This document shows, piece by piece, positions 16,209-44,983 of a DNA stretch of 57,367 nt. Made by a program: the position numbers and the translations under genes. Position 1 is the first letter of the stretch; every line of letters starts with the position of its first letter. This DNA is from Prorocentrum cordatum (lineage: Eukaryota): contig CAUYUJ010000034.1 in assembly GCA_963575745.1 (NCBI GenBank), positions 62,001 to 119,367 of the forward strand, written 5' to 3'. The notes under the pieces were generated by a model. The model ran no database searches, was not told where the DNA came from, and saw only the letters and a list, made by a program, of their open reading frames with translations.

Positions 16209-16522
16209 CAAATAATTTCGTGATTCTAGATCGGGCAGCAAACCGAGTTGAGAGCTCTGCATTCAACGAACGAACGCGACTGATGATTCTGAATCGATTT
16301 CTGTAAGCATCAGCTCTGTAGCTGTCCTATAGCTCGAGTTCACTACAGAAAACCGAGAGCCTGTTAAGATGACTCGAATAATACGAATAGGTTTGCGGGC
16401 CTAGCTCGGCTAGCAGACCAAGTTCACACCTCTGGATCCAACAGACGAACGCGTCTGATCGTTCTGTTTGGAATAGGTGTGCTTACCAGCTCTGTAGCTG
16501 CCCTAGAGCTCGAGTTAGGTAC

Positions 16523-17410: not shown

Positions 17411-18014
17411 TCCAAAACCCGGAGAGCAAAGAGAACAAACACACACCGGAAAATCTTCCTGGCAAGCCCACGGAAGCTCGCGTGAAGCTCTTCTGGGGCT
17501 CTGGGGGGCTCCCCGGCAGCGCTTCCGAAGCGCTGCCAGAAACGCTTCCACGCGCGCCTGCACGCGAGCGGGCACGCGTGGAAGCTTGCCGGAAGCTCTC
17601 CCGGACACGTTGCCGGCTCAAACGAGCCGCTGCTGGGATTCTGGAGCGGCGGAGATGCGCTGCTGGCGGGCACCACCACCGTCCGGCTTCTAATCTCAAA
17701 CCCTTTAGCTCTCAGCGAGCTCTCCGGGAATAAAATACCGACAGCGCGCATGAAGATGACACGAGAAATATTCCCTGGAGAGAGCTGGGGGGCCTCCCCG
17801 AAGCGCTTCGGAAGCGCTGCCAGGAACGCTTCCACGCGTGCCTGCACGAGTGCAGGCACGCGTGGACGCATGCCGGAAGCGCTCCCGGACCCGCTGCGAC
17901 CCCACACGAACTGCTGCGAGGATTCCGGAGCGGCGGAGATGCGCTGCTGGCGGGCACCACCACCGTCCAGCTTCTAATCGAAAACCCTCTAGCTCTCAGA
18001 GAGCCCTCCGGGAA
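17411..18014. repeat. Two tandem ~300-bp family E units
   Basis: Each runs from TTCCTGG to CTCCGGGAA around a CCACGCG(C/T)GCCTGCACG..GGCACGCGTGGA quasi-palindrome. Confidence 0.75.
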
Positions 18015-18040
18015 AAAGGCCGTCGAGATTTTTTTGCCAA

Positions 18041-19258
18041 CTGGGCGCCGGCGGTAAACCGTCAACCTGTCTTACCGCCGGGGGACTCGTAGAGCTTCCT
18101 GACAATATATAATGTCGAAAAAAATTGCAGAGAACGAATTGTTTTTCAGCCCAAGCGATTTCAGACCTCCCGATGCAACAGCCAAACGCCCCCCGATGCT
18201 TCTGGATTGTCTTCTGCACGAGCTCTGTAGCTCTCCTACAGCCCGAGTTACGTGAGTCAATCGACAGCACCTCTGAAGATGACTCGAAGAAAACGAATAG
18301 TTTGGCAAACCCAGCCCGAGTATCAGACCGAGTTCAGACCTCTCAATGCGACAGGCGGACGCGTCTGATGTCTCCGAATCGATTCCTGTGATTACCCGCC
18401 CTGCAGCCCCCCTACAGTCCGAGTTAAGTGCAGGAAACCGACAGCATCTTTCAGGATGACTCGAACAATACGAACAGTTTCGCGAACCGAGTTCGGGCAC
18501 AGAACCGAGTTCCGAGCTCTAGATTCCACAGGCGGACGCGCCTGATGTCTGCAAATCGATTGCTGTCACCACCACTACTGTAGCCCCCCAACAGCCCGAG
18601 TTAAGTGCAGAAAACGCACAGCACCTCTCAAGATGACTCGAACAATACGAACAGTTTCGCGATTCTCGGGCAGCAGACCGAGTTCAGAGCTCTGCGTTCA
18701 ACAGACAAGCGCGACTGATGATTCTCAATCGGTTTCTGTAAGTATCAGCACTGTAGCTGTCATATAGCTCGAGATACGTACAGAAAACAGAGAGCGCCTG
18801 TCAAGATGACTCGAATAATACGAATAGGTTTGCGGACCTAGCTCGGGTAGCAGACCGAGTTCAGACCTCTGTTCGGAACAGCCGAACGCGCCTGATCATT
18901 CTGAATCGATGAGGTGTGCTGACCAGCTATGTAGCAATCCTATATGTCGAGTTAGGTTCAGTTTTCCGACAGCGCGAATCAAGATGACTCGAAACGGCCG
19001 ATCCCGCCGCAGTGCTTTTTGGCAGTAAAAGGTGCCCGATCGAGCTGAGATCAAGATGGCGAGCGGGAATAAGATCGAATATCACGGGACAAAATATTAG
19101 AGCTCTAACGAATGGTTGAATTTCGAGAAGAAATTTTTTAACCGACCAAAATCCCTCCAAATGTCCGTCGAGATTTTTCTTGCCAACTAGCTCTCCAGCG
19201 CCCCGGGATTACTCTTAAGCTCCCAGCAATAACTTGCTAAGGGAAGCTCTACGAGTTA
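18041..19258 (-). mobile_element. Complete family A element (1218 bp)
   Basis: Flanks TTGCCAA | CTAGCTCTCC rejoin the parent; both termini are intact. Confidence 0.85.
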
Positions 19259-20572
19259 CTAGCTCTCCAGCGCCCCGGAATCCTTTTCAGCTTCCAGCAA
19301 TGACATGCTCAGGGAAGCTCTACGAGTTACTGGAAACCGGCGGTAAACCGTCAACCAGGTTACCGCCGGGCACCTCGTAGAGCTCTTCTCTTGCGCAGCG
19401 CTTCTCGGAGCACATGAAGGAAGCTTCGAGCAGAAAAATTCGGAAAAACACTATTTGTTGGTTTTGATCCAAAGTCGGTTCCCTCAAGTCTTTTGATAGT
19501 AATACTCTAGCTACAGACTGAGAATTTTACTGGCAGACGCGGCGCAACCCACTGCACGTGAGAAAAATGTTGGTTCTCAAAACGAATTTCAAAATCTTGT
19601 ATAAAGTGAAAAAAAACGACCCCAGGTTACCACATTGTCTCTTTTGTTCGGGCCCGCCAACTGGGCGCCGGCGGTAAACCGTCAACCTTTGTTACCGCCG
19701 GGGGACTCGTAGAGCTTCCTGATAATATTTAATGTTTAAAAAAATGCAGAGAACGAGTAGTTTTTCAGCCCAAGCGATTTCAGACTTCTCGATGCGACAG
19801 CCGAACGCCCCCGATGCTTCTAGATTATATCCTGTACGGGCTCTGTAGCTCTCCTACAGCCGGAGTTACAAAATCGACAGCATCTCTCAAGATGACTCGA
19901 ACAATACGAATAGTTTGGCAAACCTAGCTCGAGTATCAAACCGAGTTCAGACCTCTGAATGCGAGAAGCGGACGCATCTGATGTCTCCGAATCGATGCCT
20001 GTGATTACCCGCCCTGCAGCCTCCCTACAGCCCGAGTTAAGTGCAGAAAACCGGCAACACCTCTCAGGATGACTCGAACAATACGAATAGTTTGGCGGAA
20101 CTAGTTCGGGCAGCAGACCGAGTTCAGAGCTCTGGATTCGACAGACGAACGCGACTGATGATTCTGAATCAGTTCATGTTAGTATCAACTCTGTAGCTGT
20201 CATATAGCTCGAGTTTAGTACAGAAAACCGAGAGCGTCTGTCAAGATGACTCAAATAATACGAATAGGTTTGCGGACCTAGCTCGGCTAGCAGACCGAGT
20301 TCAGACCTATGGATTCAACAGACAAACGCGCCTGATGATTCTGGATGCGATAGCTGTGCCCACCAGCTCTGTAGCTGCCCTACAGCTCGAGTTAAGTACA
20401 AAATACCGACAACGTATGAAGATGACTCGAAACGGCCGATCCCGCCGGGACGCTTTTTGGCATTGAAAGCTACCCGATCGAGCTGAGATCAAGATGGCGA
20501 GCGGGAATAAGATCGAATATCATGGGAAAAAATACTAGAGCTCGAACGATTTGTTGAATTTCGAGAACAAAA

Positions 20573-21364
20573 CTGGAACCGGCGGTAAACCGTCAACCAA
20601 GTTACCGCCGGGGCTCTCGTAGAGCTCTTTCTCGCACGGCGCTGCTCGATACACATGCAGATAGAGTCTGAAAGAAGACTCCCTAAAACTCGAAAAATCA
20701 CGTTTATTTTTAATCCAAAGACGGTTCCGCCAAGTGTTTTGATAGCAATACTGCACCTACATACCTGAGAATCCACTTACGAACGCACAATAACCCACTA
20801 CAGGTGCGAAAAAAACCGGATCTCAAAACGAATGTTCAAATCTCTCACGAAGTTCGTCCAACCGACCCAAAGTTCGCACATTGTCCGTCGGGGCCGGGTC
20901 GGCCTACTAGCTGCACCCCGCGCCCGAATTCCTGTAGCTCATCGATGCCGAAGAGCTCTACGAGGTACTGGGAACCGGCGGTAAACCGTCAACCAAGTTA
21001 CCGCCGGGCACCTCGTAGAGCTCTCTTCTTACACAGCGCTCCTCCGAACACGTGAAGGAAGCTTCTGAAGCGAGAGCCGAAAAATTCGAAACATGACGAT
21101 TTTTCGGTTTTCATGCAGTGGGTTCCTCCAAGTCTTTTGATAGTAATACTGGACCTAGAGCCATACAAAAATTTACCAGCAGGTGCGCCATAGCTTACTA
21201 CAGAGAATAAAAATCTCACTTCTAAAAACGAACTTCAAAATTTTGCATAAAGTGAAAAACACCGACCCCAGGTTACCACATTCTCTCTTTTCGTCGGGCA
21301 AGCCGACTAGCTCACCCTGCGCCCGAATTCCTCTTAGCTCTTTGCCGAAGAGCTCTACGAGGTA
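20573..21364 (-). mobile_element. Head-to-tail pair of family C elements (20573-20967, 20968-21364)
   Basis: Outer flanks GAGAACAAAA | TTTTCAACCGA rejoin exactly; internal junction is GAGGTA|CTGGGAACC. Confidence 0.85.
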
Positions 21365-21436
21365 TTTTCAACCGAACAAGTCACCAAAAGGTCCGCCGAG
21401 ATTTTTCTTGCCAGCTAGCTCTCCAGCGCCCCGGAA

Positions 21437-21833
21437 CTGGGAACCGGCGGTAAACCGTCAACCAAGTTACCGCCGGGCACCTCGTAGAGCTCTCTTCTTA
21501 CACAGCGCCCCTCCGAACACGTGAAGGAACCTTCTGAAGCGAGAGCCGAAAAAATCGAAAAATGACGATTTTTCGGTTTTCATACAATGGGTTCCTCCAA
21601 GTGTTTTGATAGTAATACTGGACCTAGAGCTATAGAAAGTTTACCAGCAGGTGCACCATAGCTTACTGCAGGGAATAAAAATCTCACTTCTAAAAACGAA
21701 CTTCAAAATTTTGCATAAAGTGAAAAACACCGACCCCAGTTTACCACATTCTCTCTTTTTGTCGGGCCGGCCAACTAGCTTCACCCTGCGCCCGAATTCC
21801 TCTTAGCTCTTCGCCAAAGAGCTCCACGAAGTA
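21437..21833 (-). mobile_element. Complete family C element (397 bp), close copy of 20968-21364
   Basis: Flanks CCCCGGAA | TTACTCTTAAG rejoin exactly. Confidence 0.85.
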
Positions 21834-22815
21834 TTACTCTTAAGCTTCCAGCAATAACTTGCTAAGGGAAGCTCTACGAGTTACTAGGAATTCCTCTTGG
21901 CTCTTTGGTGAAGAGCTCTACGAGGTACTAGCTCTACCCCGCGCCGGAAATCCTCTAGCTCATCGATGCCGAGCAGCTTTACAAGGTACTCTGCCAGCAA
22001 TAACTTGCTAAGGGAAGCTCTACGAGTTACAAAAAGCTCTACGAGGTACTATCTCTCCAGCGCCCCGGAATTACTCTAAAGCTTCCAGCAACTGGCTCAG
22101 GGAAGCCCTGCGAGTTTCTAGCTCCACCTCGCGCTGGAATTCCTCTGGCTCATCGATAACGAAGAGCTCTACGAGGTACTAGCTCAGGGGAAGCTCCACA
22201 AGTTATTGTTGACCGACCAAAAGGCACCAACGGGTCCGTTGCGACTGGGCGCCGGCGGTAAACCGTTAACCTTTCTAAGCGCCGGGAGACTCGTAGAGCT
22301 TCCTGACCATATATAATGTCCAAACAAATGAGAGAACGAATAGTTGTTCAGCCCGAGCGATTCCAGACCTCTCGATGCAACAGCCGAACGTCCCTGATGC
22401 TTCGTGATCGTTTTCTGTGCGTACTAGCTCGTAGCTATCCAGCCCGAGCTCAATACAGAAAAGGGACAAAATCTGCGAACGTGACTTGAAGAATACGAAT
22501 ACTTTTGCGGACCTAGCCTGAGTTGCAAACCAAGTTCAGACCTTTGGATGCAACAGACGAACGCGCAGGATGATATCGAGTCAGTTTCTGTGCGTATCAG
22601 GCTCTGTCGCTATCCTACAGCCCGAATTACGTGCTAAAATCGGCAGCACCTCGCAAGACAACTCGATCAATACGAATAGGTTCGCGAGCCTAGCTCGAGT
22701 ACCAGACCGAGTTCAGACCTTTAAATGCGACAGGCGGACGCGCCTGATGTCTCCAAATCACTGGATGCAAGAGACAAGCGCGCCCCATCGTTTTGAATCG
22801 GTTTCTGAAAGTATC

Positions 22816-23296
22816 GCCTGTCGAATCCAGAGCTCGGAACTCGGTCTGATGAACTAGTCCGCGAAACCATTGTATTGTTCGAGTCATCATGAGAGGTGCT
22901 GTCGATTTGCGCACGTAGCTCGGGCTCTAGGGGGGCTGCAGGGCTGGTAATCACAGCAGTTGATTCGCAGACATCAGACGCGTCTGCCTGTCGCATTCAG
23001 AAGTCTGAACTCGGTTTGATACTCGAGCTGGGTTGCCAAACTATTCGTTTTGTTAGAGTCATCTTGAGAGGTGCTGTCGATCTACGCGTGTAACTCGGGC
23101 TAAGGGAGAGCTACAGAGCTCGCGAAGAAGACAATCCAGAAGCATCGGGGACGTTCGGCTGTTGCATCGAGAGGTCTGAAATCGCTTGGGCTGAAAACTA
23201 TTCGTTCCCTGCATTTTTTCCACATTATATATTGTCAGGAAGCTCTACGAGTCCCCCGGCGGTAAGAAAGGTTGACGGTTTGATGCCGGCGCCCAG
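22816..23296 (+). mobile_element. Truncated family A element in the opposite orientation
   Basis: Reverse complement of monomers and head, ending AGCTCTACGAG..hairpin..GCCCAG|TT. Confidence 0.8.
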
Positions 23297-23913
23297 TTCA
23301 GAGCTCTGGATGCAAGAGACAAACGCGCCTCATCGTTTTAAATCGGTTTCTGAGAATATCAGCTCTGAAGCTGTCTTGTAGCTCAAGTTGAATTCAAAAA
23401 CCGACAACGCCTGTCGAGGTGACCCAAAACGGTCGATCCCGATTTGTGGCAGTAGAAGATACCCGATCGAGCTGAGATTAAGACGGCGAGCGGAAATGAG
23501 GTCGAATATAATGGAAAAAAAAAACTAGAGCTCAAACGAATGGAGGGAGAACAAAATTTTCAACCGACCAAAAGTAAGCAAAAGGTCCGTCGAAAGTATT
23601 ATTGCCAACTTGCTCTCCAGCGCCCCGGAATTACTCTTAAGCTTCCAGCAACTAGCTCAGGGAAGCTTTACGAGTTATTTTTCTTGCCGACTAGCTCAAG
23701 CCTGCGCCCGAATTCCTCTTAGCTCTTTGCCGAAGAACTCTAGGAGGTATATTACTCTTAAGCTTCTAGCAACTAGCTAAGGAAAGCTCGACGAGTAATT
23801 CCTCTAGCTCATCGATGCCGAGCTCTACGAGATACTAGCTGCACCCCGCGCCGGAATTCTTCTAGCTCATCGCATTCCTCCAGCTCATCGATGCCGAAGA
23901 GCTCTACAAGGTA

Positions 23914-24944
23914 AACCCAGAGAGCGAAGAGACCGTCGGGGAGGGGAAGCTTTCCGAGAGAGCTCTGGGGGCTGCCCTGAAGCCCTCCTGGCGCGCTGCC
24001 AGGAACGCGCCCACACCTGCCTGCGCGCGCGCAGGTGCACTTAAAAAACGCCCCCGAACTTGCTGCCGGGTCGGGCAAACTGCTGCTGGGATTCTGGAGC
24101 GGCGAAGATGAGCTGCTGGCGGGTACCACCGCCGTCCGGCTTCCGATCTTAAACCCTCTAGCTCGCAGAGAGCTCTCTATGAGCTAGAAGGTTTTAGAGT
24201 AGAGGCCGGACGGTGGTGGTGCCCGCCTGCAGCCCATCTCCGCCGGCCAGAATCCCCGCAGCAGTTCGCCTGGGCCGGCAGCGGGTTCGAAGGCGCTTCC
24301 GGCACGGGTCCGCGCGGGCCTGCACGCTTGCAGGCACGCGTGGATACGTTCCTGGTAGCGCTTCGGAAGCGCTTCTGGGGAGCCCCCCGCAGCTCTCCAG
24401 GAAAGATTTCCCGTCCCAGAGGTTCTTCGCTCTCCTTGGCTCTTCGGGTTTGGGACGCTGCCAAGTTCAGGTCGGTAGCTGCAGCATTACTATCAAAGCA
24501 CTTGAAGCAACCGACTTTGGATGAAAACAAACTCGGTAGCGTCCAAAACCCGGAAAGCGAAGAGCACATACACCAGAAAGCTTCCCTGGCGGGCACTCAC
24601 ACGCTTTCGTAACGGCTTTCTGCCGCTCTGGGGGGGCTCCCTACAGCGCTGCTGAAGCGCTGCCAGAATCGCTTCCATGCGTGCCTGCACGCGTGCAGGC
24701 ACGCGTGGAAGCTTGCCGGAAGCTCTCCCGGACACGGTGCCGGGCTGGGCGAGGCGCTGCGGGGGACGTGGACCGCCGTGGAGGAGCTCCTGGCGGGCAC
24801 AACCACCGTCCGGCTTGTAATCTTAAACACTCTAGCTCTCAGCGAGCTCCCCGGGGAAGAATCGCGATTTAACGTAGAGCTTCCCAGTTGCTGGAACTTA
24901 AGAGAAATTCCCAGAGAGCTCTCTGAGAGCTAAAAGATTTAGAC
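23914..24944. repeat. Cluster of family E units in alternating orientation
   Basis: Forward unit to ~24175, inverted unit ~24178-24465, forward unit ~24532-24858; near-perfect 42-bp palindrome at 24671-24712. Confidence 0.7.
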
Positions 24945-25202
24945 TGGCGCCGGCGGTGAACCGTCAACCTGGTTACCGCCGCGAACCTCGTAGAGCTCCT
25001 TGCACGCGTAAGAGTGCTCAGGATCGGAGCAGGGATGTTCTCAGGGTAATTCTAGGAAAAAATCGAATTCACATTTCTCTGTGTCAATTTCATGTTGGTT
25101 ACTCCTAATTTTCCGATAGTAAAACTGGCTCTTGAGAGCTGAGCTGCTCAGAGAACAAAATTTATATGCCAATGCTCGGCGTAAAAATCTGCTTACTCAA
25201 AA

Positions 25203-25601
25203 CTGGCGCCGGCGGTGAACCGTCAACCTGGTCACCGCCGGGAACATCGTAGAGCTCTTTTCACGTGTAAGAGTGCTCAGAGTCGAAAGAGAGAGCTTCT
25301 GGAAGCATTTCTCGAAGAAGGGAAAAATTGATTTTTTTCGCGTCGACATGAAGATGGTTCCCCCAAGTGTTTTGATAGTAAAAGTGCGCCTACAGGGCTC
25401 ATACTAAGACAGAGAGGCCCTCATAGTCGTTTACAGGTGCGAAAAATCTGCTTTCTCAAAATGAATTGACAAATATCTTTCAAAAAATCGCAAAACCACC
25501 CCAAAGTTGTCACATTGTCCGCCTCGGCCGGCTGGGCCAACTAGCTTCACCCCGCGCCGGAATTCCTCTAGCTCATCGATGCCGAAGAGCTCTACGAGGT
25601 A
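25203..25601 (-). mobile_element. Complete family B element (399 bp)
   Basis: Flanks CTCAAAA | TGAATTGTC rejoin exactly; hairpin arms GGCGGTGA/TCACCGCC. Confidence 0.85.
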
Positions 25602-28600
25602 TGAATTGTCAACTGGGCACCGGCGGTAAACCGTCAACCTTTCTTACCGCCGGGGGACTCGTAGAGCTTCCTGACAGTATATAATGTGGGAAAACAATCC
25701 AGAGAATTTCAGCCCGAGCCAGACCTCTCAAGATGACTCTGGCGAAAAAACGAACAGTTTGGAACCCAGCTCGAGTGTCAAACCGAGTTCAGACCTCTGA
25801 ATGCGGTCTGATGTCTTTGAATCGACTCCTCTGATTACCAGCCCTGCAGCCCCCCTATAGCCCGAGTTGAGTGCAGAAATCGACAGCAGCTCTCAGGATG
25901 ACTTGAATAATAGAATAGCTTCGAGGAGCTAGTTCGAGCAGCAGACCGAGTTCCGAGCTCTGTATTTGACAGACGGACACGCCTGATGTCTTCAAATCGA
26001 TTTCTGTGACCAGCAGCAATGTAGCCCTCCCCAAGCACGAGTTAAGTGCAGAAAACCGAGAGCACTTCTCAAGATGACTCGAACACTACGAATAGTTTCG
26101 CGAACCTAGCTCGGGCAGCATGCCGAGTTCAGAGCTCTCGATGCAACAGACGAACGCGCCTGATGATTCCCAATCGAGTTCTGTGACAACGAGCTCTGTA
26201 ACTGCCCTACAGCTCGAGTTAAGTACAGAAAACCGAGAGCAACTGCTACGATGACTCGAATAATACGAATAGGTTTGCGGACCTAGCTCGGCTAGCAGAC
26301 CGAGTTCAGACCTCTGCATTCAACAGGCGAACGCGCCTAATCATTCTGAATCGATTAGCTGTGCTCACCAGCTCTGTAACTGTCATGAAGCTCGAGTTAT
26401 CTTGAGAAATTCGACAGCGCGTATCAAGACAACTCGAAACGGCCGATCCCGCCGGAGTGCTTTTTGGCAGTAAAAGGTACCCGATCGAGCTGAGATCAAG
26501 ATGGCGAGCGGGAATAAGATCGAATATCACGGGAACAAATACTAGAGCCCAAACGAATTGTTGAATTTCGAGAAGAAAATTTTCAACCGACCAAAAGTCA
26601 CCAAAAGGTCCGTCGAGATTTTTCTTGCCAACTAGCTCTCCAGCGCCCCGGAATTACTCAAGCTTCCAGCAATAACTTGCTAAGGGAAGCTCTACGAGTT
26701 AACTGGGCGCCGGCGGTAAACCGTCAACCTTCGTTACCGCCGGGGGACTCGTAGAGCTTCCTGACAACATATAATGTCGAAAAAATTACACTAAAAAAAT
26801 AATGATTCAGCCCAAGCAATTTCAGACCTCTCCGATGTAAGCCGAACGCCCCCGATGCTTCTGGATTGTCTTCTGTACGAGCTCTGTAGCTCTCCTACAG
26901 CCAGAGTTACGTGCGTAAATCGACAGCACCTCTCAAGATGACTCGAACAATACGAATAGTTTGGCAAACCTAGCTCGAGTATAAGACCGAGTTCAGACCT
27001 CTCCATGCGACAGGGAGACGCATCTGATGTCTTTGAATCGATTCCTGTGACCACCAGCACTGCAGTCCCCCTACAGCCCGAGTTAAGTGCAGGAAACCGA
27101 CAGCACCTTAGGATGGCTCGAACAATAAAAATTTCGCAGCAGACAGAGTTCCGAGCTCTGGATTCGAAAGCTGGACGCACCTGATGTCTCCGAATCGATT
27201 CCAGTGATTACCGGCCATGCAGCTCCCCTACAGCCCGAGATGAGTGCAGAGAACCGACAGCATCTCTCAAGATGACTCGAACGATACGAATAGTTTTGCG
27301 ATTCTAGATTGGGCAGCTGACCGAGTTCAGAGCTCTGGATTCAACAGACAACGGCCACTGAGGATTCTGAATCGGATTCTGTACGTATAAGCTCTGTAGC
27401 TGTGCTGTAGCTCGAGTGAGTTACAGAAAACCGAGAGCGTCTGTCAAGATCACTCGAATAATACGAATAGATTTGCGGACCTAACTCGGCTAGCAGACCG
27501 AGTTCAGACCTCTGGGTTCGACAGGCGAACGCGCCTGATCATTCTGAATGCATAAGCTGTGCTGACCAGCTCTGTAGCTGCCCTGAAGCTCGAGTTATCT
27601 TAAGAACACCGTCACCGCGTATCAAGATGACTCGAAACGGCCGATCCCGCCGGAGCGCTTTTTGGCAGTAAAAGGTACCCGATCGAGCTGAGATCAAGAT
27701 GGCGAGCGGGAATAAGATCGAATATCACGGGAAAAAATACTAGAGCTCAAACGAATTGCTGCATTTCGAGAACAAAATTTTCAACCGACCAAAAGTCAGC
27801 AAAAGGTCCGTCGAGATTTTCCTTGCCAACTAGCTCTCGAGCGCCCCGGAATTACTGGGCGCCGGCGGTAAACCGTCAACCTTGGTTACCGCCGGGAAAC
27901 TCGTAGAGCTTCCTAGTGAATATTTTTTGACCTCTGAATGCGACAGGCGGACGCGTCTGATGTCTGCGAATCGACTCCTGTCATTACCAGCCCTGGAGCC
28001 CCACTACAGCCCAAGTTAAGTGCAGAAAACCGACAGCACCTCTCAGGATGACTCGAACAATACAGCAGTTTTGCAGACCTAATTCGGGCAGCAGACCGAG
28101 TACCGAGCTCTGGATTCGACAGACGGACGCGCCTGATGTCTTCAAATCGATTCCTGTGACAACAAGCACTGTAGCCCCCCTCAGCGCGAGTTGAGTGAAG
28201 AAAACCGAGAGCACTTCTCAAGATGACTCGACCAATACGAATAGTTTCGCGATTCTAGATCGGGCAGCAGACAGAGTTCAGAGCTCCGGATTCGACGCAC
28301 AAGCGCAACAGATGATTCTGAATCGGTTTCTATAAATATAAGCTCTGTAGCTGTCCTACAGCTCGAGTTAAGTACAGAAAACCGAGCGTTCCTGTCAAGA
28401 TGACTCGAATAATACGAATAGGTTCGCAGACCTAGCTCGGCTAACAGACCGAGTTCAGGCCTCTGGATTGAACAGGCGAACGCGCCTAATCATTCTACAT
28501 CGATTAGCTGTGCTTACCAGCTCTGTAGCTGTCCTAAAGCTCGAGTTATGTTCAGAAAACCGTCAGAGCGTATCAAGATGACTCCAAACGGCCGATCCCG

Positions 28601-30983
28601 CCAGTGCTTTTCGATAGTAATATTCACCCGATCGAGCTGAGATCAAGATGGCGAGCGGGAATAAGATCGAATATCACGGGAAAAAATACTAGAGCTCTAA
28701 CGAATGGTCAGATTTCGAGAACATAATTTTCAACCGAGCCAAAGTTGTGAAAAGTTCAGTCGAGATTTTTCGAGCCAACTAGCCTGCCAGCGTTTTCGAC
28801 TGGGCGCCGGCGGTAAACCGTCAACCTTTCTTACCGCCGGGGGACTCGTAGAGCTTCCCGACAACATAATGTCGAAAGAAATTACACAGAAGAAATAATT
28901 TTTCAGCCCAGGCAATTTGAGACCTCTCGGATGCAAAAGACGAGCGCCGCCGATGCTTCTAGATTGTCTTCTGTACGAGCTCTGTAGCTCTCCTACTGCC
29001 CGAGTTACGTGCGTAAATCGACAGCACCTCTCAAGATGACTCGAACAATACGAATAGTTTGGCAGACCTAGTTCGAGCATCAGACCGAGTTCAGACCTCT
29101 GCATGCGACAGGCGGACGCGTCTGATGTCTCTGAATCGATCCCTGTGATTACCAGCTCTGCAGCCCCCCCCTGCAGCCGAGTTAAGTGCAGGAAACCGAC
29201 AGCATCTCTCAGGATGACTCGAACAATACGAATAGTTTCGCGGACCTAGTTCGGGCAACAAACCGAGGTCGGAGCTCTGGATTCCGCAGGCGAACGCGCC
29301 TGATGTCTCCGAATCGATTCCAGTGATTACCAGCCATGCAGCCCCCCTACAGCCCGAGTTAAGTGCAGAGAACCGACAGTATCTCGCAAGTGACTCGAAC
29401 AATACGAATAGTTTCGCGATTCTAGATCGGGCAGCAGACCGAGTTCAGAGCTCTGCATTCAACAGACAACGGCCACTGATGATTCTGAATCAGATTCTGT
29501 ACGTAGCAGCTCTTTAGCTGTCCTGTAGCTCGAGTTAAGTACAAAAAACCGAAAGCGTCTGTCAAGATGACTCGAATAATACGAATAGGTTTGCGCACCT
29601 AGCTCGGCTAACAGACCGAATTCAGACCTCTGGCTTCAACAGGCGAACGCGCCTGATCATTCTGAATGGATTAGCTGTGCTCATCAGATCTTTAGCTGTC
29701 CTGAAGCTCCAGTTATCTTGAGAAAACCGACACCGCGTGACAAGATGACTCGAAACGGCCGATCCCGCCCGTGTGCTTTTTGGCAGTAAAAGGTACCCGA
29801 TCGAGCTGAGATCAAGATGGCGAGCGGGAATAAGATCGAATATCACGGGAAAAAAATACTAGAGCTCAAACGAATTGTTGAATTTTGAGAACGAAATTTT
29901 CAACCGACCAAAAGTCAGCAAAAAGTCCGTCGAGATTTTTCTTGCCAACTGGGCGCCGGCGGTAAACCGTCAACCTTTCTTACCGCCGGGAGACTCGTAG
30001 AGCTTCCTGACAACATAACGTCGAAAGAAATTACACAGAAAAAAAATCAGCCCAGGAAATTTGAGATCTGTCGGATGCGAAAGACGAACGCCGCCGATGC
30101 TTCTAGATTGTCTTCTGTACGAGCTCTGTAGCTCTCCTACAGCCCGAGTTACGTGCGTAAATCGACAGCACCTCTCAAGATGACTCGAACAATACGAATA
30201 GTTTGGCAAACCTAGTTCGAGCATCAGACCGAGTTCAGACCTCTGCATGCGACGGGCGGACGCGTCTGATGTCTCTGAATCGATCCCTGTGATAACCAGC
30301 CCTGCAGCCCTCCCTGCAGCCGAGTTAAGTGCAGGAAACCAACAGCATCTCTCAGGATGACTCGAACAATACGAACAGTTTCGCGGACCTAAGGTCGGAG
30401 CTCTCGATTCCGCATGCGAACGCGCCTGATGTCTCCGCATCGATTCCAGTGATTACCAGCCATGCAGCCCCCGCACAGCCCGAGTTAAGTGCAGAGAACC
30501 GACAGTATCTCGCAAGTGACTCGAACAATACGAATAGTTTCGCGATTCTAGATCGGGCAGCAGACCGAGTTCAGAGCTCTGCATTCAACAGACAACGGCC
30601 ACTGATGATTCTGAATCAGATTCTGTACGCAGCGGCTCTTTAGCTGTCCTGTAGCTCGAGTTAAGTACAAAAAACCGAGAGCGTCTGTCAAGATGACTCG
30701 AATAATACGAATAGGTTTGCGCACCTAGCTCGGCTAGCAGACCGAATTCAGACCTCTGGCTTCAACAGGCGAACGCGCCTGATCATTCTGAATCGATTAG
30801 CTGTGCTTACGAGCTCTTTAGCTGTCCTGAAGCTCGAGTTATCTTGAGAAAATCGACACCGCGTGACAAGATGACTCGAAACGGCCGATCCCGCGCGTGT
30901 GCTTTTTGGCAGTAAAAGGTACCCGATCGAGCTGAGATCAAGATAGCGAGCAAGAATAAGATCGAATATCACGGGACAAAATA

Positions 30984-33900
30984 CTGGCGCCGGCGGTGAA
31001 CCGTCAACCTGGTCACCGCCGGGAACCTCGTAGAGCTCCTTTCACGCGTAAGAGTGCTCAGAGTCGAAAGAGAGAGCTTCTGGAAGCATTTCTCGAGGAA
31101 GGGAAACATTGATTTGTTTCGTGTCGACATGAAGTTGCATCCGCCAAGTGTTTTGATAGTAAAGGGGCGCCTACAGAGCTGATGCTAAGACAGAGAGGCC
31201 CTCATATTCGTTTACAGGTGCGAAAAATCTGCTTTCTAAAAATGAATTGTCAAATATCTTTGAAAAATTGCAAAACCACCCAAACTGGGCGCCGGCGGTA
31301 AACCATCAACCTTTCTTACCGCCGGGGGACTCATAGAGCTTCCTAACAGTATATAGTGTGGGAAAAAAATCAGAGAACGACTAGTTTTCAGCCAAAGCGA
31401 TTTCAAACCTCTCAAGATGACTCTAACAAAAAAACAAACAGTTTCGCAACCCAGTTCAAGTATCAGACCGAGTTCAGACCTCTCAATGCGACAGGCGGAC
31501 GCATCTGATGTCTGCGAATCGACTCATGTGATTACCAGCCCTGCAGCCCCCCTACAGCCCGAGTTAAGTGCAGAAAACCGACAGCATCTCTCAGGATGAC
31601 TCGAATAATATAATAGTTTCGCAGACCTGTTTCGAGCAGCAGACCAAGTTCTGAGCTCTCGAATCGACCAACGAACGCGCCTGATGTGTGCAAATCGATT
31701 TCTATGACCCGCAGCACTGTAGCCCTCCCCAGCACGAGTTGAGTGCGGAAAATTGAGAGCACTTTTCACGATGATTCGGACAATACGAATAGTTTCGCGA
31801 ACCTAGCTCGGGCAGCAGGCCGAGTTCAGAGCTCTCGATACAACAGACAACTGCGCCCGATAATTCCCAATCGATTTATGTGACATAGGCTCTGTAGCTG
31901 CCCTACAGCTCGAGTTAAATACAGAAAAACGAAGGCGTTTGTCAAGATGACTCGAATAATACGAATAGATTTGCGGACCTAGCTCGGCTAGCAGACCGAG
32001 TTCAGACCTCTCGAGTCAAGAGGCGAACGCGCCTGATGATTCCGAATGCGATGGATGTGCTTACCAGCTCTGTAGCTGCTCTGCAGCTCGAATGAAGTAC
32101 AAAATACCCACCACGCGTATCAAGTTGACTCGAATAATACGAATAGGTTTGCGGACCTAGCTCGGCTGGCAGACCGAGTTCAGACCTATGGATTCAACAG
32201 GCGAACGCGACTGATGATTCTGAGTGCGATAGGTGTGCTTACCAGCACTGTAGCTGCCCTACAGCTCGAGCTAAGTAGAAAATACCGACAACGCGTATCA
32301 AGTTCACTCGAATAATACGAATAAGTTTGCGGACCTAGCTCGGCTAGCAGACCGGGTTCAGACCTATGGATTCAACAGGCGAACGCGCCTGATGATTATG
32401 AGTGCGATAGGTGTGCTTACCAGCACTGTAGCTGCCCTACAGCTCGAGTTAAGTAGAAAATACCGACAACGCGTATGAAGATGACTCGAAACAGCCGATC
32501 CCGCCGGGACGCTTTTTGGCAGTAAAAGGTACCCGATCGAGCTGACATCAAGATGGCGAGCGGGAATAAGATCGAATTTGACGGGAAAAATACTAGAGCT
32601 CAAACGAATTGTTGAATTTTGAAAACAAAACTGGAACCGGCGGTAAACCGTCAGCCTGGTTACCGCCGGAAACCTCCTAGAGCTCTTTTCTTGCACAGCG
32701 ATCGTCGGAACACATAGAAGAAGCTTCTGAGGCGAGAAACAAAAAACTCGAAAAAACGTGTTTTCTGTTTTCATACAACCTCGGTTCCTCCAAGTGTTTT
32801 GATAATAATAATACTGCACCTATGCTACCAACATTCTGACTCATAGTGAATATGTTTTGACCTCTGAATGCGACAAGCGGACGCGTCTGATGTCTGCGAA
32901 TCGACTCCTGTCATTACCAGCCCCGCAGCCCCCCTACAGCCCGAGGTCAGTGCAGAAAACCGACAGCATCTCTCAGGATGACTCGAACAATACAACACTA
33001 TCGCGAACCTAGTTCGGGAAGCAGCTGGATTCGACAGGCGGACGCGCATGATCTCTTTAAATCGATTCATATGACAACCAGCACTGTAGCCCCCTCTCAG
33101 CGCAAGTTGAGTGAAGAAAACCGAGAGCACTTCTAAAGATGACTCAAGCAATACGAATAATTTCGTGATTCTAGATCGGGCAGAAGACCAAGTCGAGAGC
33201 TCTGGATTCGACAGACAAACGCAACTCACAATTCTGAAGCAGTTTCTGTAAATATCAGCTCTGTAGCTGTCTTAGAGCTCGAGTTAAGTACAGAAAACCG
33301 AGAGTTTCTGTGAAGATGACTCGAATAATACGAATCGGTTTCCAGACCTAGCTCGGCTCACAGACCGAGTTCAGACCTCTCGATTCAACAGGCGAACGCG
33401 CCTAATCATTCTGCAACGATTACTGTGCTTACCAGCTCTGTAGATGTCTTAAAGTTCGAGTTATGTTGAGAAAACCGTCAGCGCGTATCAAGATGACTCG
33501 AAACGGCCGATCCCGCCAGAGTGCTTTTTGGCCTTGAAAGTTACCGATCGAGCTGAGATCGAAATAGCGAGCGGAAATAAGATCCAATAAAAAATACTAG
33601 AGCTCTAACGAATGGTCTAATTTCGAGAAGAAAATTTTCAATCGACCAAAAGTCAGCAAACGTTCCGTCGAGATTTTTCTTGCCAGCTAGCTCTGCAGCG
33701 CGCCGGAATTACTCTTAAGCTTCCAGCAACTAGCTTAGAGAAGCTCTACGAGTCAGTTATCATATTGTCCTCTCTGGTCGGATCGGCCAACTAGCTCCAC
33801 CCCGGGCTCGGATTCCTCTAGCTCATCGATGCCAGAGAGCTCTACGAGGTATTTTCAACCGACCAAAAGTCATCAAAGGGTCCGTCGAGATTTTCCTTGC

Positions 33901-34072
33901 GAACTAGCTCTCCAGCGCTACGGAATTACTCTTAAGCTTCCAGCAATAACTTGCTGATGGAAGCTCTACGAGTTAAGTTGTCACATTCTCTCTTTTCGTC
34001 AGGTCGGCAAACTAGCTCCATCCCGCGCCGGAATTCCTCTAGCTCATCGATTCCGAAGAGCTCTACGAGATA
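30984..34072 (-). mobile_element. Family B element containing nested A (31285-33975) and composite C (32631-33851)
   Basis: Three split targets rejoin: AAAATA|CTTGAGCTC, CCACCCAAA|AGTTGTCAC and GAAAACAAAA|TTTTCAACC. Confidence 0.85.
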
Positions 34073-34096
34073 CTTGAGCTCAAACGAATTGTTGAA

Positions 34097-34350
34097 GAAG
34101 AGACCCTTTGAGGACAGGGAATCTTTCCTGGAGAGCTCTGGGCGGCTCCCCTGCAGCGCTGCCGAAGCGCTGGCAGACACGATTCCGTGCGTACCTGCAC
34201 GCGTGCAGGCACGCGTGGAAGCTTGCCGGAAGCTCCCCGGACACGTGTCCGGTTCACCGGAGGCGCTGCAAAGCCTGTGGAGCGACGGAAATGAGCTCCT
34301 GGCGGGCACTCTTATCTTAAACCTTTAGCTCTCAGCGAGCTCTCCGGGAA
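34097..34350. repeat. Single family E unit
   Basis: TTCCTGGAGAGCT...AGCTCTCCGGGAA inverted ends with the central CCTGCACGCGTGCAGG palindrome. Confidence 0.7.
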
Positions 34351-36137
34351 AATTTTTAACCGACCAAAAGTCAGCATTTTCAACCGACCAAAAGTCAGCA
34401 AAAGGTCCGTCGAGATTTGCCTTGCCAACTGGGCGCCGGCGGCAAACCGTCAACCTTTCTTACCGCCAGGGGACTCGTAGAGCTTCCTGAAAATATAAAG
34501 TGCGGGAAAAAACTCCAAAGAACGACTAGTTTTTGAGCCCAAGCGATTTCAGACCTCTCAAGATAACGCTAACAAAAACCAACCGGTTTCGCAACCCAGT
34601 TCGAGTATCAAACCGAGTTCAGACCTCTGAATGCGACAGGCGGCCGCGTCTGATGTCTGCGAATCCACTCATGTGATTCCCAGCCCTACAGCCCCCCTAC
34701 AGCCCGAGTTAAGTGCAGAAAACCGACAGTATCGACTCGAATAATAGAATAGTTTTGCGGACCTAGTTCGAGCAGCAGACCGAGTTCCGAGCTCTGGAAT
34801 CGACCGACAAACGCGCCTGATGTGTTCAAATCGATATGTGTGACCCGCAGCACTGTAGCCGGCCCCAAACACGAGTTAAGTGCAGAAAACCGAGAGCACT
34901 TCTCAAGATGACTCGGACAATACGAATAGTTTCGCGAACCTAGCTCGGGCAGCAGACCGAGTTCAGAGCTCTCGCTTCAGTAGACGAACGCGACTGATGA
35001 TTCCATCGATGTCTGTGACAATGAGCCCTGTAGCTGCCCTAGAGCTCGAGTTAAGTACAGAAAATCGAGAGCGTCTGTCAAGATGACTCGAATAATACGA
35101 ATAGGTTTGCGGACCTAGCTCGGCTAGCAGACCGAGTTCAGACCTCTGGATTCAACAGGCCAACGCGCGTGATGATTCTGAAGGCGATAGGCGTGCTTAC
35201 CAGCACTTTAGCTGCCCTACAGCTCGAGTTGAGTAGGGAAACCCGACAACGCGTATCAAGTTGGCTCGAATAATACGAATAGGTTTCCGGACCTAGCTCG
35301 GCTAGCAGACCGAGTTCAGACCTATGGATTCAACAGACGAATGCGCCTGATGGTTCTGAGGGCGATAGATGTGCTTACCAGCACTGTGGCTGCCCTACAG
35401 CTCGAGTTAAGTAGAGAATACCGACAACACGTATCAAGTTGACTCGAATAATACGAATAGGTTTGCGGACCTAGCTCGGCTAGCAGACCGAGTTCAGACC
35501 TATGGATTCAACAGGCGAACGCGCCTGATGATTCTGAGTGCGATAGGTGTGCTTACCAGCACTGTAGCTGCCCTACAGTACAGCTCGAGTTAAGTAGAAA
35601 ATACCGACAACGCGTATCAAGATGACTCGAAACGGCCGTTCCCGCCTGCCTGCTTTTTGGCCTTGAAAGTTACTCGATCGAGCTGAGATCAAGATGGCGA
35701 GCGGGAATAAGATCGAATATCATGGGAAAAAATACTAGGGCTCTAACGAATGGTCAAATTTCGAGAACAAAATTTTCAACCGACCAAAAGTCCCAAAAAG
35801 GTCCGTCGAGATTTTTGTTGCCAACTAGCTCTCCAGCTCCCCGGAACTGGCGCCGGCGGTGAACCGTCAACCTGGTCACCGCCGGGAACCTCGTAGAGCT
35901 CCCTCAACGCGTAAGAGTGCTCAGAGTGGAAAGAGAGTGCTTCTCGAAGCATTTCTCGAAAAAGGGAAAACATGATTTTTTTTGTGTCGACATGACGATG
36001 GTTCCTCCAAGTGTTTTGATAGTAAACATGCGCCTAGAGAGCTCATATTGAGACAGAGAGGCCCTCATGGTCGTTTACAGGTGCGAAAAATCTGCTTTCT
36101 AAAAATGAATTGTCAAATATCTTTGAAATAATCGCAA

Positions 36138-37563
36138 CTGGGCGCCGGCGGTAAACCGTCAACCTTGGTTACCGCCGGGGAACTCGTAGAGCTTCCAAGC
36201 TCGACTTAAGTCGAGAAAACCGAGAGCACCTACCAACATTCTGACTCATAGTGAATATTTGTTGACCTCTGAATGCGACAAGCGGACGCGTCTGATCAGA
36301 CCGTGTTCAGACCTCTCAATGCGACAGGCGGACGCGTCTGATCTCTGCGAATCGACTCATGTCATTACCAGCCCTGCAGCCCCCCTACAGCCCGAGTTAA
36401 GTGCAGAAAACCGACAGCATCTCTCAGGATGACTCGAATAATATAATAATTTCGCAGATCTGTTTCGAGCAGCAGACCAAGTTCTGAGCTCTCGAATCGA
36501 CCAACGAACGCGCCTGATGTGTGCAAATCGATTTCTATGACCCGCAGCACTGTAGAAAATACCGAGAGCGTTTATCAAGATGACTCGAATAATACGAATA
36601 GATTTGCGGACCTAGCTCGGCTAGCAGACCGAGTTCAGACCTCTGGAGTCAAGAGGCGAACGCGCCTGATAATTATGAGTGCGATAGGTGTGCTTACCAG
36701 CACTCTAGCTGCCCTGCAGCTCGAATTAAGTACAAAATACCCACCACGCGTATCAAGTTGACTCGAATAATACGAATAGGTTTGCGGACCTAGCTCGGCT
36801 AGCAGACCGAGTTCAGACCTATGGATTAAACAGGCGAACGCGCCTGATGATTCTGAGTGCAATAGGTGTGCTTACCAGCACTGTAGCTGCCCTACAGCTC
36901 GAGTTCAGTAGAAAATATCGACAACGCGTATCAAGTTGACTCGAATAATACGAATGGGTTTGCGGACCTAGCTCGGCTAGCAGACCTAGTTCAGACCTAT
37001 GGATTCAACAGGCGAACGCGCCTGATGATTCTGAGTGCGATAGGTTTGCTTACCAGCACTGTAGCTGCACTACAGCTCGAGTTAAGTAGAGAATACCGAC
37101 AACGCGTATCAAGTTGACTCGAATAATACAAATAGGTTTGCGGACCTAGCTCGGCTAGCAAACCGAGTTCAGACCTATGGATTCAACAGGCGAACGCGTC
37201 TGATGATTCTGAGTGCGATAGCTGTGCTTACCAGCTCTGTAGCTGTCCTACAGCTCGAGTTAAGTACAAAATACCGACAGCGCGTATTACGAAGACTCGA
37301 AACGGCCGTTCCCGCCACAGTGCTTTTTGGCCTTCAAAGTTACCCGATCGAGCTGAGATCAAGATGGCGAGCGGGAATAAGATCGAATATCACGGGAAAA
37401 AATACTAGAGCTCTAACGAATGGTCAAATTTCGAGAACAAAATTTTCAACCGACGAAAAGTCACCAAAAGTTCCGTCGAGATTTTTCGAGCCAACTAGCT
37501 CTCCAGCGCGCCCGAATTACTCTTAAGCTTCCAGCAACTAGCTTAGGGAAGCTCTACGAGTCA
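36138..37563 (-). mobile_element. Family A variant (TTGG hairpin loop) with expanded 178-bp monomers
   Basis: Flanks ATCGCAA | AACCACCCC rejoin exactly; four similar monomers at ~36600-37300. Confidence 0.85.
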
Positions 37564-44558: not shown

Positions 44559-44957
44559 CTGGCGCCGGCGGTGAACCGTCAACCTGGTCACCGCCGGGAA
44601 CCTCGTAGAGCTCATTTCACGCGTAAGAGTGCTCGGAGTCGAAAGAGAGAGCTTCTGGAAGCATTTCTCGAAAAAGAGAAAAAAAGATTTTTTTCGTGTC
44701 GGCATGAAGAAGGTTCCGCCAAGTGTTTTGATAGTAAAAGTGCGCCTACAGAGCTCATACTAAGACAGAGAGGCCCTCATAGTCGTTTACAGGTGCGAAA
44801 AATCTGCTTTCTCAAAATGAATTTTGAAATATCTTTCAAAAAATTGCAAAACCACCCAAAAGTTATCACATCTTCTTTTCTGGTCGGGTCGACCAACTAG
44901 CTCCACAGCGCGCCGGAATTCCTCTAGCTCATCGATATCGAAGAGCTCTACGAGGTA
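44559..44957 (-). mobile_element. Complete family B element (399 bp)
   Basis: Flanks GTTGTCAAA | AGTTCAGTCG rejoin exactly. Confidence 0.85.
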
Positions 44958-44983
44958 AGTTCAGTCGAAATTTTTCGAGCCAA

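What the first reader, a model, noticed from the sequence alone, without database searches (positions are those of the whole stretch)
25203..25680. Compensatory changes in both the hairpin stem and the long-range subTIR pair
Seen: family B has GGCGGTGA/TCACCGCC while A and C have GGCGGTAA/TTACCGCC, with the loop ACCGTCAACC nearly invariant. Family A pairs ACTCGTAGAGCTTCC with GGAAGCTCTACGAGT at its far end; B and C pair ACCTCGTAGAGCTC with GAGCTCTACGAGGT. Inference: both pairings are under selection, as expected for ssDNA recognition by a HUH enzyme. At head-to-tail junctions (20967, 53133) both assemble into one nested stem-loop, as they would on a circle.
Basis: partly seen in the sequence, partly recalled or inferred. 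Interest (0 to 1): 0.7.

Follow-up and report, generated by a model that had tools for sequence, protein, structure and literature searches.

The report
Helitron2-type transposon ends with compensated pairings
The hairpin and the long-range inverted repeat are the two ends of small non-coding rolling-circle-type (Helitron2/Helentron-like) transposons piled into each other, and their base pairings are kept by compensatory changes, a feature already described for this class.

Summary
The window holds 56 copies (55 on the + strand) of a terminus made of a 10-bp hairpin with a near-invariant loop (exact in 49 of 56), followed by a CTCGTAGAG box. The inverse box ends each element. Inside the window the compensation amounts to one hairpin position (36 A-T, 12 G-C, 5 unpaired, 3 lacking the arm) and two or three box-flank positions, all on a single A versus B/C split. 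That is too few events to pass a phylogeny-aware test.

Related copies from marine metagenomes settle it. In 129 distinct termini the stem is 92.5% paired, 6 of 10 pairs show double changes, and there are at least 9 distinct compensated stems. The covariation score is 0.259 against 0.078 shuffled (0 of 500). The flanks of the long-range pair also match their own partner better than partners from other lineages (0 of 5000 permutations).

The anatomy matches published Helitron2/Helentron non-autonomous elements:
- a 5' inverted repeat 2 nt from one end;
- its partner just before a subterminal hairpin at the other end;
- a second hairpin at the 5' end;
- no target duplication;
- internal tandem repeats.

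Compensatory changes were already reported for that class. No RepHel gene was found, so the HUH enzyme is inferred. This is a new member of a known kind.

The parts
25203..25601 (+). Complete B-family element (399 bp), from the hairpin end CTGGCG... to ...GAGGTA
   Evidence: In public-run unitigs, loose ends just before 25201 and behind 25601/25602 show the same ends joined to other flanks.
25209..25241 (+). Subterminal hairpin of the B copy: arms CCGGCGGTGA / TCACCGCCGG, loop ACCGTCAACCTGG
25244..25257 (+). Hairpin-side inverted repeat (subTIR/ATIR) of the B copy, ACATCGTAGAGCTC. It carries one mutation against the family form ACCTCGTAGAGCTC.
25587..25600 (+). Far-end inverted repeat of the B copy, GAGCTCTACGAGGT, followed by the terminal A at 25601
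25613..26701 (+). A-family element: hairpin 25620-25653, repeat ACTCGTAGAGCTTCC 25657-25671, partner GGAAGCTCTACGAGT 26685-26699, end ...GAGTTA
20947..21029 (+). Head-to-tail junction (tail ends at 20967, head starts at 20968) that folds into a nested stem-loop. The junction point TA|CT lies in the internal loop between the two helices.
   Evidence: -27.2 kcal/mol, z -7.2 (+ strand); z -8.0 (- strand).
53113..53195 (+). Second head-to-tail junction (tail ends at 53133) with the same nested fold
   Evidence: z -7.2 and -7.0.
45452..46751 (+). Reference full-length A copy (1300 bp) with internal tandem repeats of about 178 bp (about 45573-46476). It also has a second hairpin near the tail, formed with the internal box ATTACTCTTAAGCTTCC.
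3364..57367 (+). Array of 56 hairpin termini (55 on +, one on - at 23169-23297), nested into and abutting each other. The window's right end is still inside the array.

Best explanation
The finding covers the two ends of non-autonomous Helitron-like elements of the HLE2 group (Helitron2/Helentron; the non-autonomous ones are called HINEs). Three families, A, B and C, have inserted into one another about 56 times in one orientation.

Anatomy, read on the strand opposite to the window (the usual Helitron2 convention):
- The element starts T-N-ACTCGTAGAGC.... This is the 5' inverted repeat, 2 nt from the end.
- That repeat can also pair with a box about 20-40 nt further in, giving a 5' hairpin.
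- The element ends ...GCTCTACGAGT, then 3-5 nt, a 10-bp hairpin with loop GGTTGACGGTT, and 6-7 nt to the end.

What is shown:
- The ends are precise and there is no target duplication.
- Insertion is after an A and before a pyrimidine.
- The hairpin stem and the flanks of the long-range repeat change in concert across lineages, while the loop and a 9-nt core stay fixed.
- Joined ends fold into an outer helix (repeat pair) and an inner hairpin, with the junction point in the internal loop between them.

What is inferred:
- A RepHel (HUH) transposase encoded elsewhere recognises this folded single strand. The stems would be read as shape, and the loop and core as sequence.
- It would nick at A|Y in the internal loop and move the element by rolling-circle replication.
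- Pairing of the two repeats would compete with the 5' hairpin to mark the end point, as Bao and Jurka proposed for Helitron2.
- The uniform orientation would arise because the preferred target (A|CT, especially GCCAA|CTAGC inside the element's own tail region) resembles the element's own joined ends (TA|CTGG). Copies would therefore keep landing in resident copies the same way round.
For: Copy number and ends:
- 56 termini against 2.2 expected.
- Outside the element, similarity stops at one position. The base before the element is A in 55 of 56 window copies and in 137 of 160 metagenome copies, with random sequence upstream.
- The base after the tail is a pyrimidine in 34 of 43 window tails and 59 of 63 locus tails.
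- Interrupted host copies resume exactly after the inserted copy, for example ...GAGTTA|CTAGCTCTCC and ...GAGTTA|TTCCTCTAGC. Hence there is no target duplication.
- Unitigs of four public runs show the same ends at 25201 and 25601/25602 joined to other flanks.

Hairpin covariation:
- In 129 distinct metagenome termini, 92.5% of cells are paired and 6 of 10 pairs have double changes (133 cells).
- The score is 0.259 against 0.078 +/- 0.007 shuffled (0 of 500) and 0.019-0.036 with the partner slid.
- At least 9 distinct compensated stems occur, such as CCGGCGG/CCGCCGG, CGCGCGG/CCGCGCG, CGAGCGG/CCGCTCG, CCCGCGG/CCGCGGG, CGGGCGG/CCGCCCG, CTGGCGG/CCGCCAG, CGCTCGG/CCGAGCG, CCGCCAG/CTGGCGG and CCGGTGG/CCACCGG.

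Long-range pair:
- 46 distinct head-tail pairs fall into 17 head types.
- 6.57 of 10 flank positions match the own partner against 4.50 for partners of other lineages.
- The lineage-level permutation gives 5.71 against 4.23 +/- 0.31 (0 of 5000), with misbracketed pairs left in.

Other structure:
- Junction folds have z -6.0 to -8.0.
- A 5' hairpin was predicted on the reverse strand in most of 15 tails folded. The box TTACTCTT lies within 70 nt upstream of 60 of 79 locus tails and 21 of 48 window tails.
- Internal tandem repeats are present.
- There are more hairpin ends (56) than far ends (about 43).

Match to the literature (passages read):
- PMC4067079: subTIRs of 12-15 bp, 2-4 nt from the 5' end and 38-60 bp from the 3' end; a palindrome 8-35 bp from the 3' end; central repeats; T-rich targets.
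- PMC3627910: asymmetric terminal inverted repeats, a 5' hairpin, a 5' T, compensatory mutations, and excess of 3' ends.
Against: - No RepHel, PIF1-type helicase or any other transposase domain was seen in 189 ORFs of the window and related loci. None was found in the one held genome that carries the element. These are mostly short contigs, and the window's own genome is not held.
- The target is A|Y rather than the T|T reported for HLE2. A 1-nt register ambiguity lets 38 of 55 window insertions be read as T|T on the other strand. Only about a third of metagenome copies can be read that way.
- G.T and A.C mismatches in the stem are equally common (20 against 27). Neither the folded strand nor DNA versus RNA can be told from this.
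- Loop invariance outside the window was imposed by my search pattern.
- Inverted-repeat covariation does not by itself require base pairing.
Confidence: 0.75

Rival explanations
1. The elements are moved by a different single-strand DNA enzyme, not a Helitron RepHel. Candidates are an IS200/IS605- or IS91-like HUH transposase without helicase, or an undescribed eukaryotic one. It would read hairpins at both ends and insert 3' of a short word.
For: - There are hairpins at both ends.
- Insertion is always after an A, and the element also ends in A.
- There is no target duplication.
- The target resembles the element's own junction.
- No RepHel was found.
Against: - The combination of an asymmetric inverted repeat, a hairpin at one end, a 5' hairpin and central repeats matches Helitron2/HINE descriptions point by point.
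- From my own knowledge, IS200/IS605 ends have no long-range inverted repeat and are not known as eukaryotic repeats.
- The pattern was essentially absent from 185,579 prokaryote species genomes: 2 true hits, both short contigs of one MAG.
Confidence: 0.1
2. The elements are ordinary cut-and-paste TIR elements (MITE-like). The two repeats would be the same duplex binding site for a DDE transposase, and the hairpin a palindromic protein site. Co-change of the two repeats would then be co-evolution with the protein rather than pairing.
For: - The 9-nt core of the repeat is invariant, so it is read as sequence.
- Covariation of inverted repeats is expected under this model too.
- G.T wobble is not favoured over A.C.
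Against: - There is no target duplication.
- One repeat is 2 nt from its end and the other 44 nt from its end.
- Stem sequences vary freely while staying complementary, which fits recognition of shape rather than a duplex sequence site.
- Head-to-tail joins and an excess of one end fit rolling-circle copying.
Confidence: 0.05
3. This is an integron-like cassette array. The imperfect palindrome at each junction would be an attC-like folded site recombined by a tyrosine recombinase.
For: - 55 of 56 sites lie in one orientation, 0.26-3.4 kb apart.
- Each junction is an imperfect palindrome with unpaired bases at the crossover point.
Against: - The crossover is A|CTGG, not G|TTRRRY (the attC core is recalled, not taken from a call).
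- Copies sit inside one another's bodies and not only at junctions.
- The 'cassettes' are repeats with no ORFs that have Pfam hits, and no integrase was found.
- Single copies lie next to housekeeping genes in unrelated contigs.
- The pattern is absent from prokaryote genomes.
Confidence: 0.03
4. The pairings are not selected. Complementarity would be inherited within two or three families and restored by templated (quasi-palindrome) mutation or segmental duplication, in a satellite-like region without current mobility.
For: - Within the window the compensation is one event per position on a single split.
- Copies are 75-90% alike, so they are old.
- Many copies are truncated.
Against: - At least 9 compensated stems and at least 8 flank states occur across lineages, beside an unchanged loop and core.
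- The same ends are joined to many different flanks in the window, in metagenome contigs and in public runs.
Confidence: 0.07

Closest known systems
HINEs / DINE-1: non-autonomous Helentrons (Thomas et al. 2014, PMC4067079; passages read)
   Same: - Subterminal inverted repeats of about 12-15 bp: one 2 nt from one end, the other about 44 nt from the other end, just before a short stem-loop.
- Central tandem repeats.
- No coding capacity and no target duplication.
- T-rich flank in dispersed copies.
- Dense accumulation in repeat-rich regions.
   Different: - The target is A|Y rather than clearly T|T.
- The stem is longer (10 bp) with an 11-nt loop conserved across lineages.
- No autonomous partner has been identified.
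- The host is an unidentified marine organism rather than an arthropod.
- There is strong same-orientation self-nesting.
Helitron2 of Bao and Jurka 2013 (PMC3627910; passages read), for example Helitron-1N1_CRe of Chlamydomonas
   Same: - Asymmetric terminal inverted repeats.
- A 5' hairpin that uses the 5' repeat.
- A 3' hairpin after the 3' repeat.
- A 5' T.
- Sequence-specific insertion without duplication.
- Excess of 3' ends.
- Compensatory mutations that keep the structures, already noted there for two Culex elements.
   Different: - Here the 3' repeat lies about 44 nt from the end, against 20-30 nt.
- The target word differs (TTTT|T/C there).
- The compensation is documented here over many lineages rather than one pair of elements.
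Canonical Helitron (HLE1), as summarised in PMC11417382 (passages read)
   Same: - Insertion between A and T or a pyrimidine, without duplication.
- A hairpin a few nt before the 3' end.
- A 5' T.
- Head-to-tail copies.
   Different: - Canonical Helitrons lack inverted repeats.
- They end in CTRR and start with TC. These elements end in CCAG/CAAG-like words and start with TA/TG.
IS608 / IS200-IS605 single-strand transposition (recalled, not from a call)
   Same: - Works alike in outline: folded subterminal hairpins recognised on one strand.
- The cleavage point lies outside the hairpin.
- Insertion is 3' of a short word related to the element's own end.
- Orientation is fixed by the target.
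   Different: - IS608 is prokaryotic.
- It has no long-range inverted repeat and no internal tandem repeats.
- It uses a different enzyme (Y1 TnpA).

Membership tests
HLE2 (Helitron2/Helentron) non-autonomous element | 5' inverted repeat 0-4 nt from the 5' terminus | tested here: met
   T-A/G-ACTCGTAGAGC... lies 2 nt from the end in all lineages.
HLE2 (Helitron2/Helentron) non-autonomous element | 3' inverted repeat placed subterminally, immediately upstream of a 3' stem-loop that lies a few nt from the 3' end | tested here: met
   The repeat is 3-5 nt from a 10-bp stem, the stem foot is 6-7 nt from the end, and the repeat starts about 44 nt from the end. The published ranges are 20-30 or 38-60 nt.
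HLE2 (Helitron2/Helentron) non-autonomous element | 5' hairpin that uses part of the 5' inverted repeat (Helitron2 feature) | tested here: met
   This hairpin was predicted in most of 15 tails from different lineages. The partner box is within 70 nt of 60 of 79 locus tails. Position y1 co-changes in the box, the tail and the head between families A and B.
HLE2 (Helitron2/Helentron) non-autonomous element | No target-site duplication | tested here: met
   Interrupted resident copies resume exactly after the inserted copy.
HLE2 (Helitron2/Helentron) non-autonomous element | Insertion between T and T | tested here: inconclusive
   On the window strand the target is A|Y. With the 1-nt register ambiguity, 38 of 55 window copies read as T|T on the other strand, but only about 34% of 160 metagenome copies do.
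HLE2 (Helitron2/Helentron) non-autonomous element | An autonomous partner with the same ends that encodes RepHel (HUH Rep plus helicase, with or without an endonuclease) | tested here: inconclusive
   None was found among 189 ORFs of the window and 126 short loci, nor in G001. The host genome is not held, so absence cannot be judged.
Canonical Helitron (HLE1) | 5' TC and 3' CTRR ends, with no inverted repeats | tested here: not met
   The ends are TA/TG... and ...CCAG/CAAG, and a 14-16 bp inverted repeat is present.
Integron attC array | Crossover at G|TTRRRY core sites, with intI and attI nearby and ORF-bearing cassettes | tested here: not met
   The junction is A|CTGG, no integrase domain was found, the units are non-coding repeats, and copies are nested inside bodies. 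The core-site consensus is recalled.
TIR (cut-and-paste) DNA transposon / MITE | Terminal inverted repeats at both extreme ends, flanked by a target-site duplication | tested here: not met
   There is no duplication, and one repeat is 44 nt internal.

The most novel reading that the evidence does not exclude
This could be a previously undescribed clade of rolling-circle or other HUH elements of marine microbial eukaryotes. Its enzyme would read an 11-nt hairpin loop and a 9-nt repeat core as sequence and the stems as shape. It would nick in the internal loop of the folded joined ends and choose targets that mimic that junction. The elements would then build long one-way self-nested arrays, possibly a structural chromosome domain. 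The mobilising enzyme may not be a standard RepHel, since none was seen.
Probability: 0.15. Interest if true: 0.6.

Novelty: new member of a known kind. Interest (0 to 1): 0.38.

Why it matters
The result gives an unusually clean natural data set on what a Helitron2/Helentron-type transposase must read at its ends. Many lineages share one loop and one 9-nt core while their stems and repeat flanks drift in a compensated way. That separates the positions read as shape from those read as sequence. It also points to the likely nick site, in the internal loop of the joined ends. HLE2 end recognition is, to my knowledge, not worked out biochemically, so these are directly testable predictions.

The result also explains a 54-kb array with almost no genes. 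The array is self-targeted nesting, not an integron or a satellite. The general phenomenon, compensatory changes that keep Helitron2 end structures, is already in print (PMC3627910).

Tried and rejected
- The first pattern, with a fixed 10-nt loop, found nothing because the loop is 13-14 nt.
- No whole genome is held for the window.
- Rfam at gathering threshold and the tRNA scan found nothing.
- Earlier findings of the scan held nothing by place, sequence or words.
- The viral-contig scan gave 0 hits.
- The genome-contig scan gave 11 hits. Nine are chance single matches without the rest of the motif. Two are true, both short contigs of one MAG.
- Pfam on 10 + 29 + 150 ORFs found no transposase. 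It found only flanking housekeeping domains and one Exo_endo_phos ORF that lies outside the element in L085.
- The Helitron_like_N search was run in only one held genome. It found nothing there, and the controls did not ring either, so it is uninformative.
- The protein atlas on the 571-aa frame of the left flank (717-2429) and on a flanking pyruvate kinase gave no usable taxon. The kinase's nearest clusters are bacterial by features, which I do not take as evidence of host.
- G.T against A.C mismatch counts, meant to tell the folded strand, gave no asymmetry.
- A full stack parse of heads and tails fails at long range because many copies are truncated.
- My first right-flank tally was contaminated by reverse strands of heads and was redone.
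- Sequencing-run look-up and lay: all runs are short unitigs. They confirm the ends but cannot show circles, empty sites or copy number. Depth is no copy number.
- The literature search pairing Helitron with three prasinophyte genera listed nothing relevant. The host is not established, so this says little.
- The attC reading and the MITE reading were rejected, as set out under the rival explanations.
Full report
**What is there**

The window is a short unique stretch (1 to about 2290) followed by about 54 kb of repeats. The word ACCGTCAACC, with up to 1 mismatch, occurs 56 times against 2.2 expected. Of these, 55 are on the + strand, spaced 259-3367 bp apart.

Each occurrence is the loop of a hairpin inside a conserved 'head':
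- Family A: A|CTGGGCG-CCGGCGGTAA-ACCGTCAACCTTTC-TTACCGCCGG-GGG-ACTCGTAGAGCTTCC.
- Family B: ...GGTGA...TCACC..., then ACCTCGTAGAGCTC.
- Family C: the A-type stem with the B-type box.

The 'tails' end ...GGAAGCTCTACGAGTTA| in family A and ...GAGCTCTACGAGGTA| in families B and C. The quoted coordinates are right. The B copy is 25203-25601 and the next A copy is 25613-26701.

**Element ends**

Where one copy interrupts another, the host copy resumes exactly after the inserted tail. Examples are gccaa|[copy]|ctagctctcc and ccggaa|[copy]|ttcctctagc. The element therefore runs from CTGG... to ...GAG(T/G)TA and makes no target duplication.

The base before the head is A in 55 of 56 window copies (AA 38, TA 12, GA 3, CA 2). 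In 160 metagenome copies it is A in 137, with random sequence upstream. The base after the tail is a pyrimidine in 34 of 43 window tails and 59 of 63 locus tails. Because the flank and the element both end in A, the boundary has a 1-nt ambiguity.

Unitigs of four public runs show loose ends at exactly 25201 (before) and 25601/25602 (behind). They lead into other flanks of the same recurrent kinds.

**Insertion sites**

33 of 56 heads sit at five recurrent places:
- after GCCAA, 14 copies;
- after CCGGAA, 5 copies;
- after GGAATTA, 2 copies;
- after ATAA, 2 copies (these four places lie in the tail region of resident copies);
- directly after another tail, 10 copies.

The flank after window tails starts with CT in 22 of 43. 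The preferred target A|CT(A/T)G looks like the element's own joined ends, TA|CTGG. Because that target is oriented and lies inside the element, it accounts for the one-way nesting. This last step is inference.

**Compensation inside the window**

On 35 distinct heads the 9 scored stem pairs are 95.2% paired. Only one pair varies on both sides (AU 25, GC 5, GU 1, other 4). The covariation score is reached by 11 of 500 shuffles. Over all 56 copies that position is A-T 36, G-C 12, other 5, and 3 have no arm.

For the long-range pair, families A and B/C differ at the base next to the core. It is T-A in A and G-C in B/C. They also differ at the third base on the inner side, A-T in A and G-C in B/C.

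Among adjacent head-tail pairs, 20 of 22 are type-concordant by my reading. A naive stack parse over all 47 tails gives 22 concordant and 10 discordant, with 15 unclassifiable, because many copies are truncated.

All of this is one split in the family tree.

**Compensation across lineages**

In 129 distinct heads:
- The 10-pair stem is 92.5% paired, against 81.7% when shuffled.
- 6 pairs have changes on both sides (133 cells against 57 shuffled).
- The covariation score is 0.259 against 0.078 +/- 0.007 (0 of 500). Sliding the partner by 1-3 columns gives 0.019-0.036.

At least 9 different fully compensated stems occur. That needs at least 8 double changes whatever the tree.

One class of 54 heads carries a conserved mismatch (mostly T.T) at one stem position.

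Loop constancy in this set was imposed by the search pattern and is not evidence.

**The long-range pair across lineages**

I paired each head with the next tail downstream. This gave 46 distinct pairs in 17 head types, with misbracketed ones left in. Of 10 positions flanking the invariant 9-nt core, 6.57 match the own partner against 4.50 for partners of other lineages. Permuting tails among lineages gives 4.23 +/- 0.31 against 5.71 observed (0 of 5000).

The inner flank differs by lineage and is mirrored each time in that lineage's own tail: CTTCC, CTCTT, CCTTCT, CCTTTCT, CCTGTCT, CAG, CATTT, CAC.

**Folds**

Three head-to-tail junctions fold, on either strand, into an outer helix (the repeat pair) and the inner hairpin. 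Energies are -26 to -29 kcal/mol, with z -6.0 to -8.0. The junction point lies in the internal loop between the helices.

The tail region also folds on its own. The terminal repeat pairs with an internal box (TATTACTCTTAGAGC in most lineages, ATTACTCTTAAGCTTCC in A, TTCCTCTAGCTC in B). The box is present near 60 of 79 locus tails. Between A and B the base next to the core changes in all three places: box, tail and head.

**What it is**

Read on the other strand, this is the published blueprint of Helitron2/Helentron ends:
- a 5' T;
- a 5' inverted repeat 0-4 nt from the end that can also form a 5' hairpin;
- a 3' inverted repeat just upstream of a stem-loop close to the 3' end;
- central tandem repeats (the 1300-bp A copy has units of about 178 bp);
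- no duplication and T-rich targets;
- an excess of 3' ends.

These points come from passages read in PMC4067079 and PMC3627910. The HLE1/HLE2 summary comes from passages read in PMC11417382. Bao and Jurka already reported compensatory mutations that keep these features in two Culex elements. They proposed that pairing of the two repeats opens the 5' hairpin and marks the end of rolling-circle copying.

**What is missing**

No RepHel or other transposase domain was found in 189 ORFs. The window's genome is not held. The enzyme, and the element's sense strand, are therefore inferred.

The host is also inferred to be a eukaryote, on three grounds:
- 54 kb lack credible genes.
- The motif is absent from 185,579 prokaryote species genomes, except two short contigs of one MAG.
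- Viral contigs gave no hits.

Mismatch types do not reveal which strand folds.

**Verdict**

This is a new family of a known kind. Its useful extras are the wide compensated series, the conserved loop and core, the position of the nick site, and the self-targeted one-way nesting.

Noticed in passing
window 45573-46476 (and the matching part of every A copy): A-family elements carry about five internal tandem repeats of about 178 bp. The left edge of the array (2411-3093) is made of the same repeat.
   Followed up: partly
window 5034, 8265, 5532 (loop positions): Three heads keep the 5' arm and the loop but lack the 3' arm and the box. The break is at the loop/3'-arm border. Two of them continue with the same sequence (...TTTGAGTTTGAGTCAGGGCGCGGACAGCTGTG) although their upstream parts belong to different subfamilies. 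A further degenerate head with a deleted loop lies at about 14340-14390.
   Followed up: partly
window 15955-18035, 23915-24940, 34100-34310: A different GC-rich repeat with internal inverted repeats follows B-type tails. It has ORFs without Pfam hits, and its nature is unknown.
   Followed up: partly
window 23169-23297 (-): This is the only head in the opposite orientation. It lies inside an A copy.
   Followed up: no
window 714-2381 (-): A 555-aa ORF in the unique left flank has five metagenome-only homologues (44-55% identity, E 1e-79 to 1e-120) and no Pfam family. It looks like a real but uncharacterised gene.
   Followed up: partly
L003, L008 (same contig as L017 for L003): Two short contigs binned into a marine 'Nitrospinota' MAG carry the element. 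No other prokaryote species genome in the scan does, so they are probably mis-binned eukaryotic DNA.
   Followed up: partly
L060-L062 (one 8.9-kb metagenome contig), L066/L067: Runs of 3-5 heads in one orientation, 0.5-1.4 kb apart, also occur in another lineage (stem CGCGCGG). One-way clustering is therefore not peculiar to this window.
   Followed up: no
L085 14-1153 (+): An ORF with an Exo_endo_phos (AP-endonuclease type) domain, E 2.5e-7, ends about 100 nt outside a head. It lies outside that element, so it may be a LINE or a host gene rather than a Helentron endonuclease.
   Followed up: partly
metagenome heads, alignment A2 columns 12/33: 54 of 129 heads carry a non-pairing combination (mostly T.T) at one stem position (GGTA...TTTCC class). 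This is a conserved internal mismatch rather than decay.
   Followed up: no
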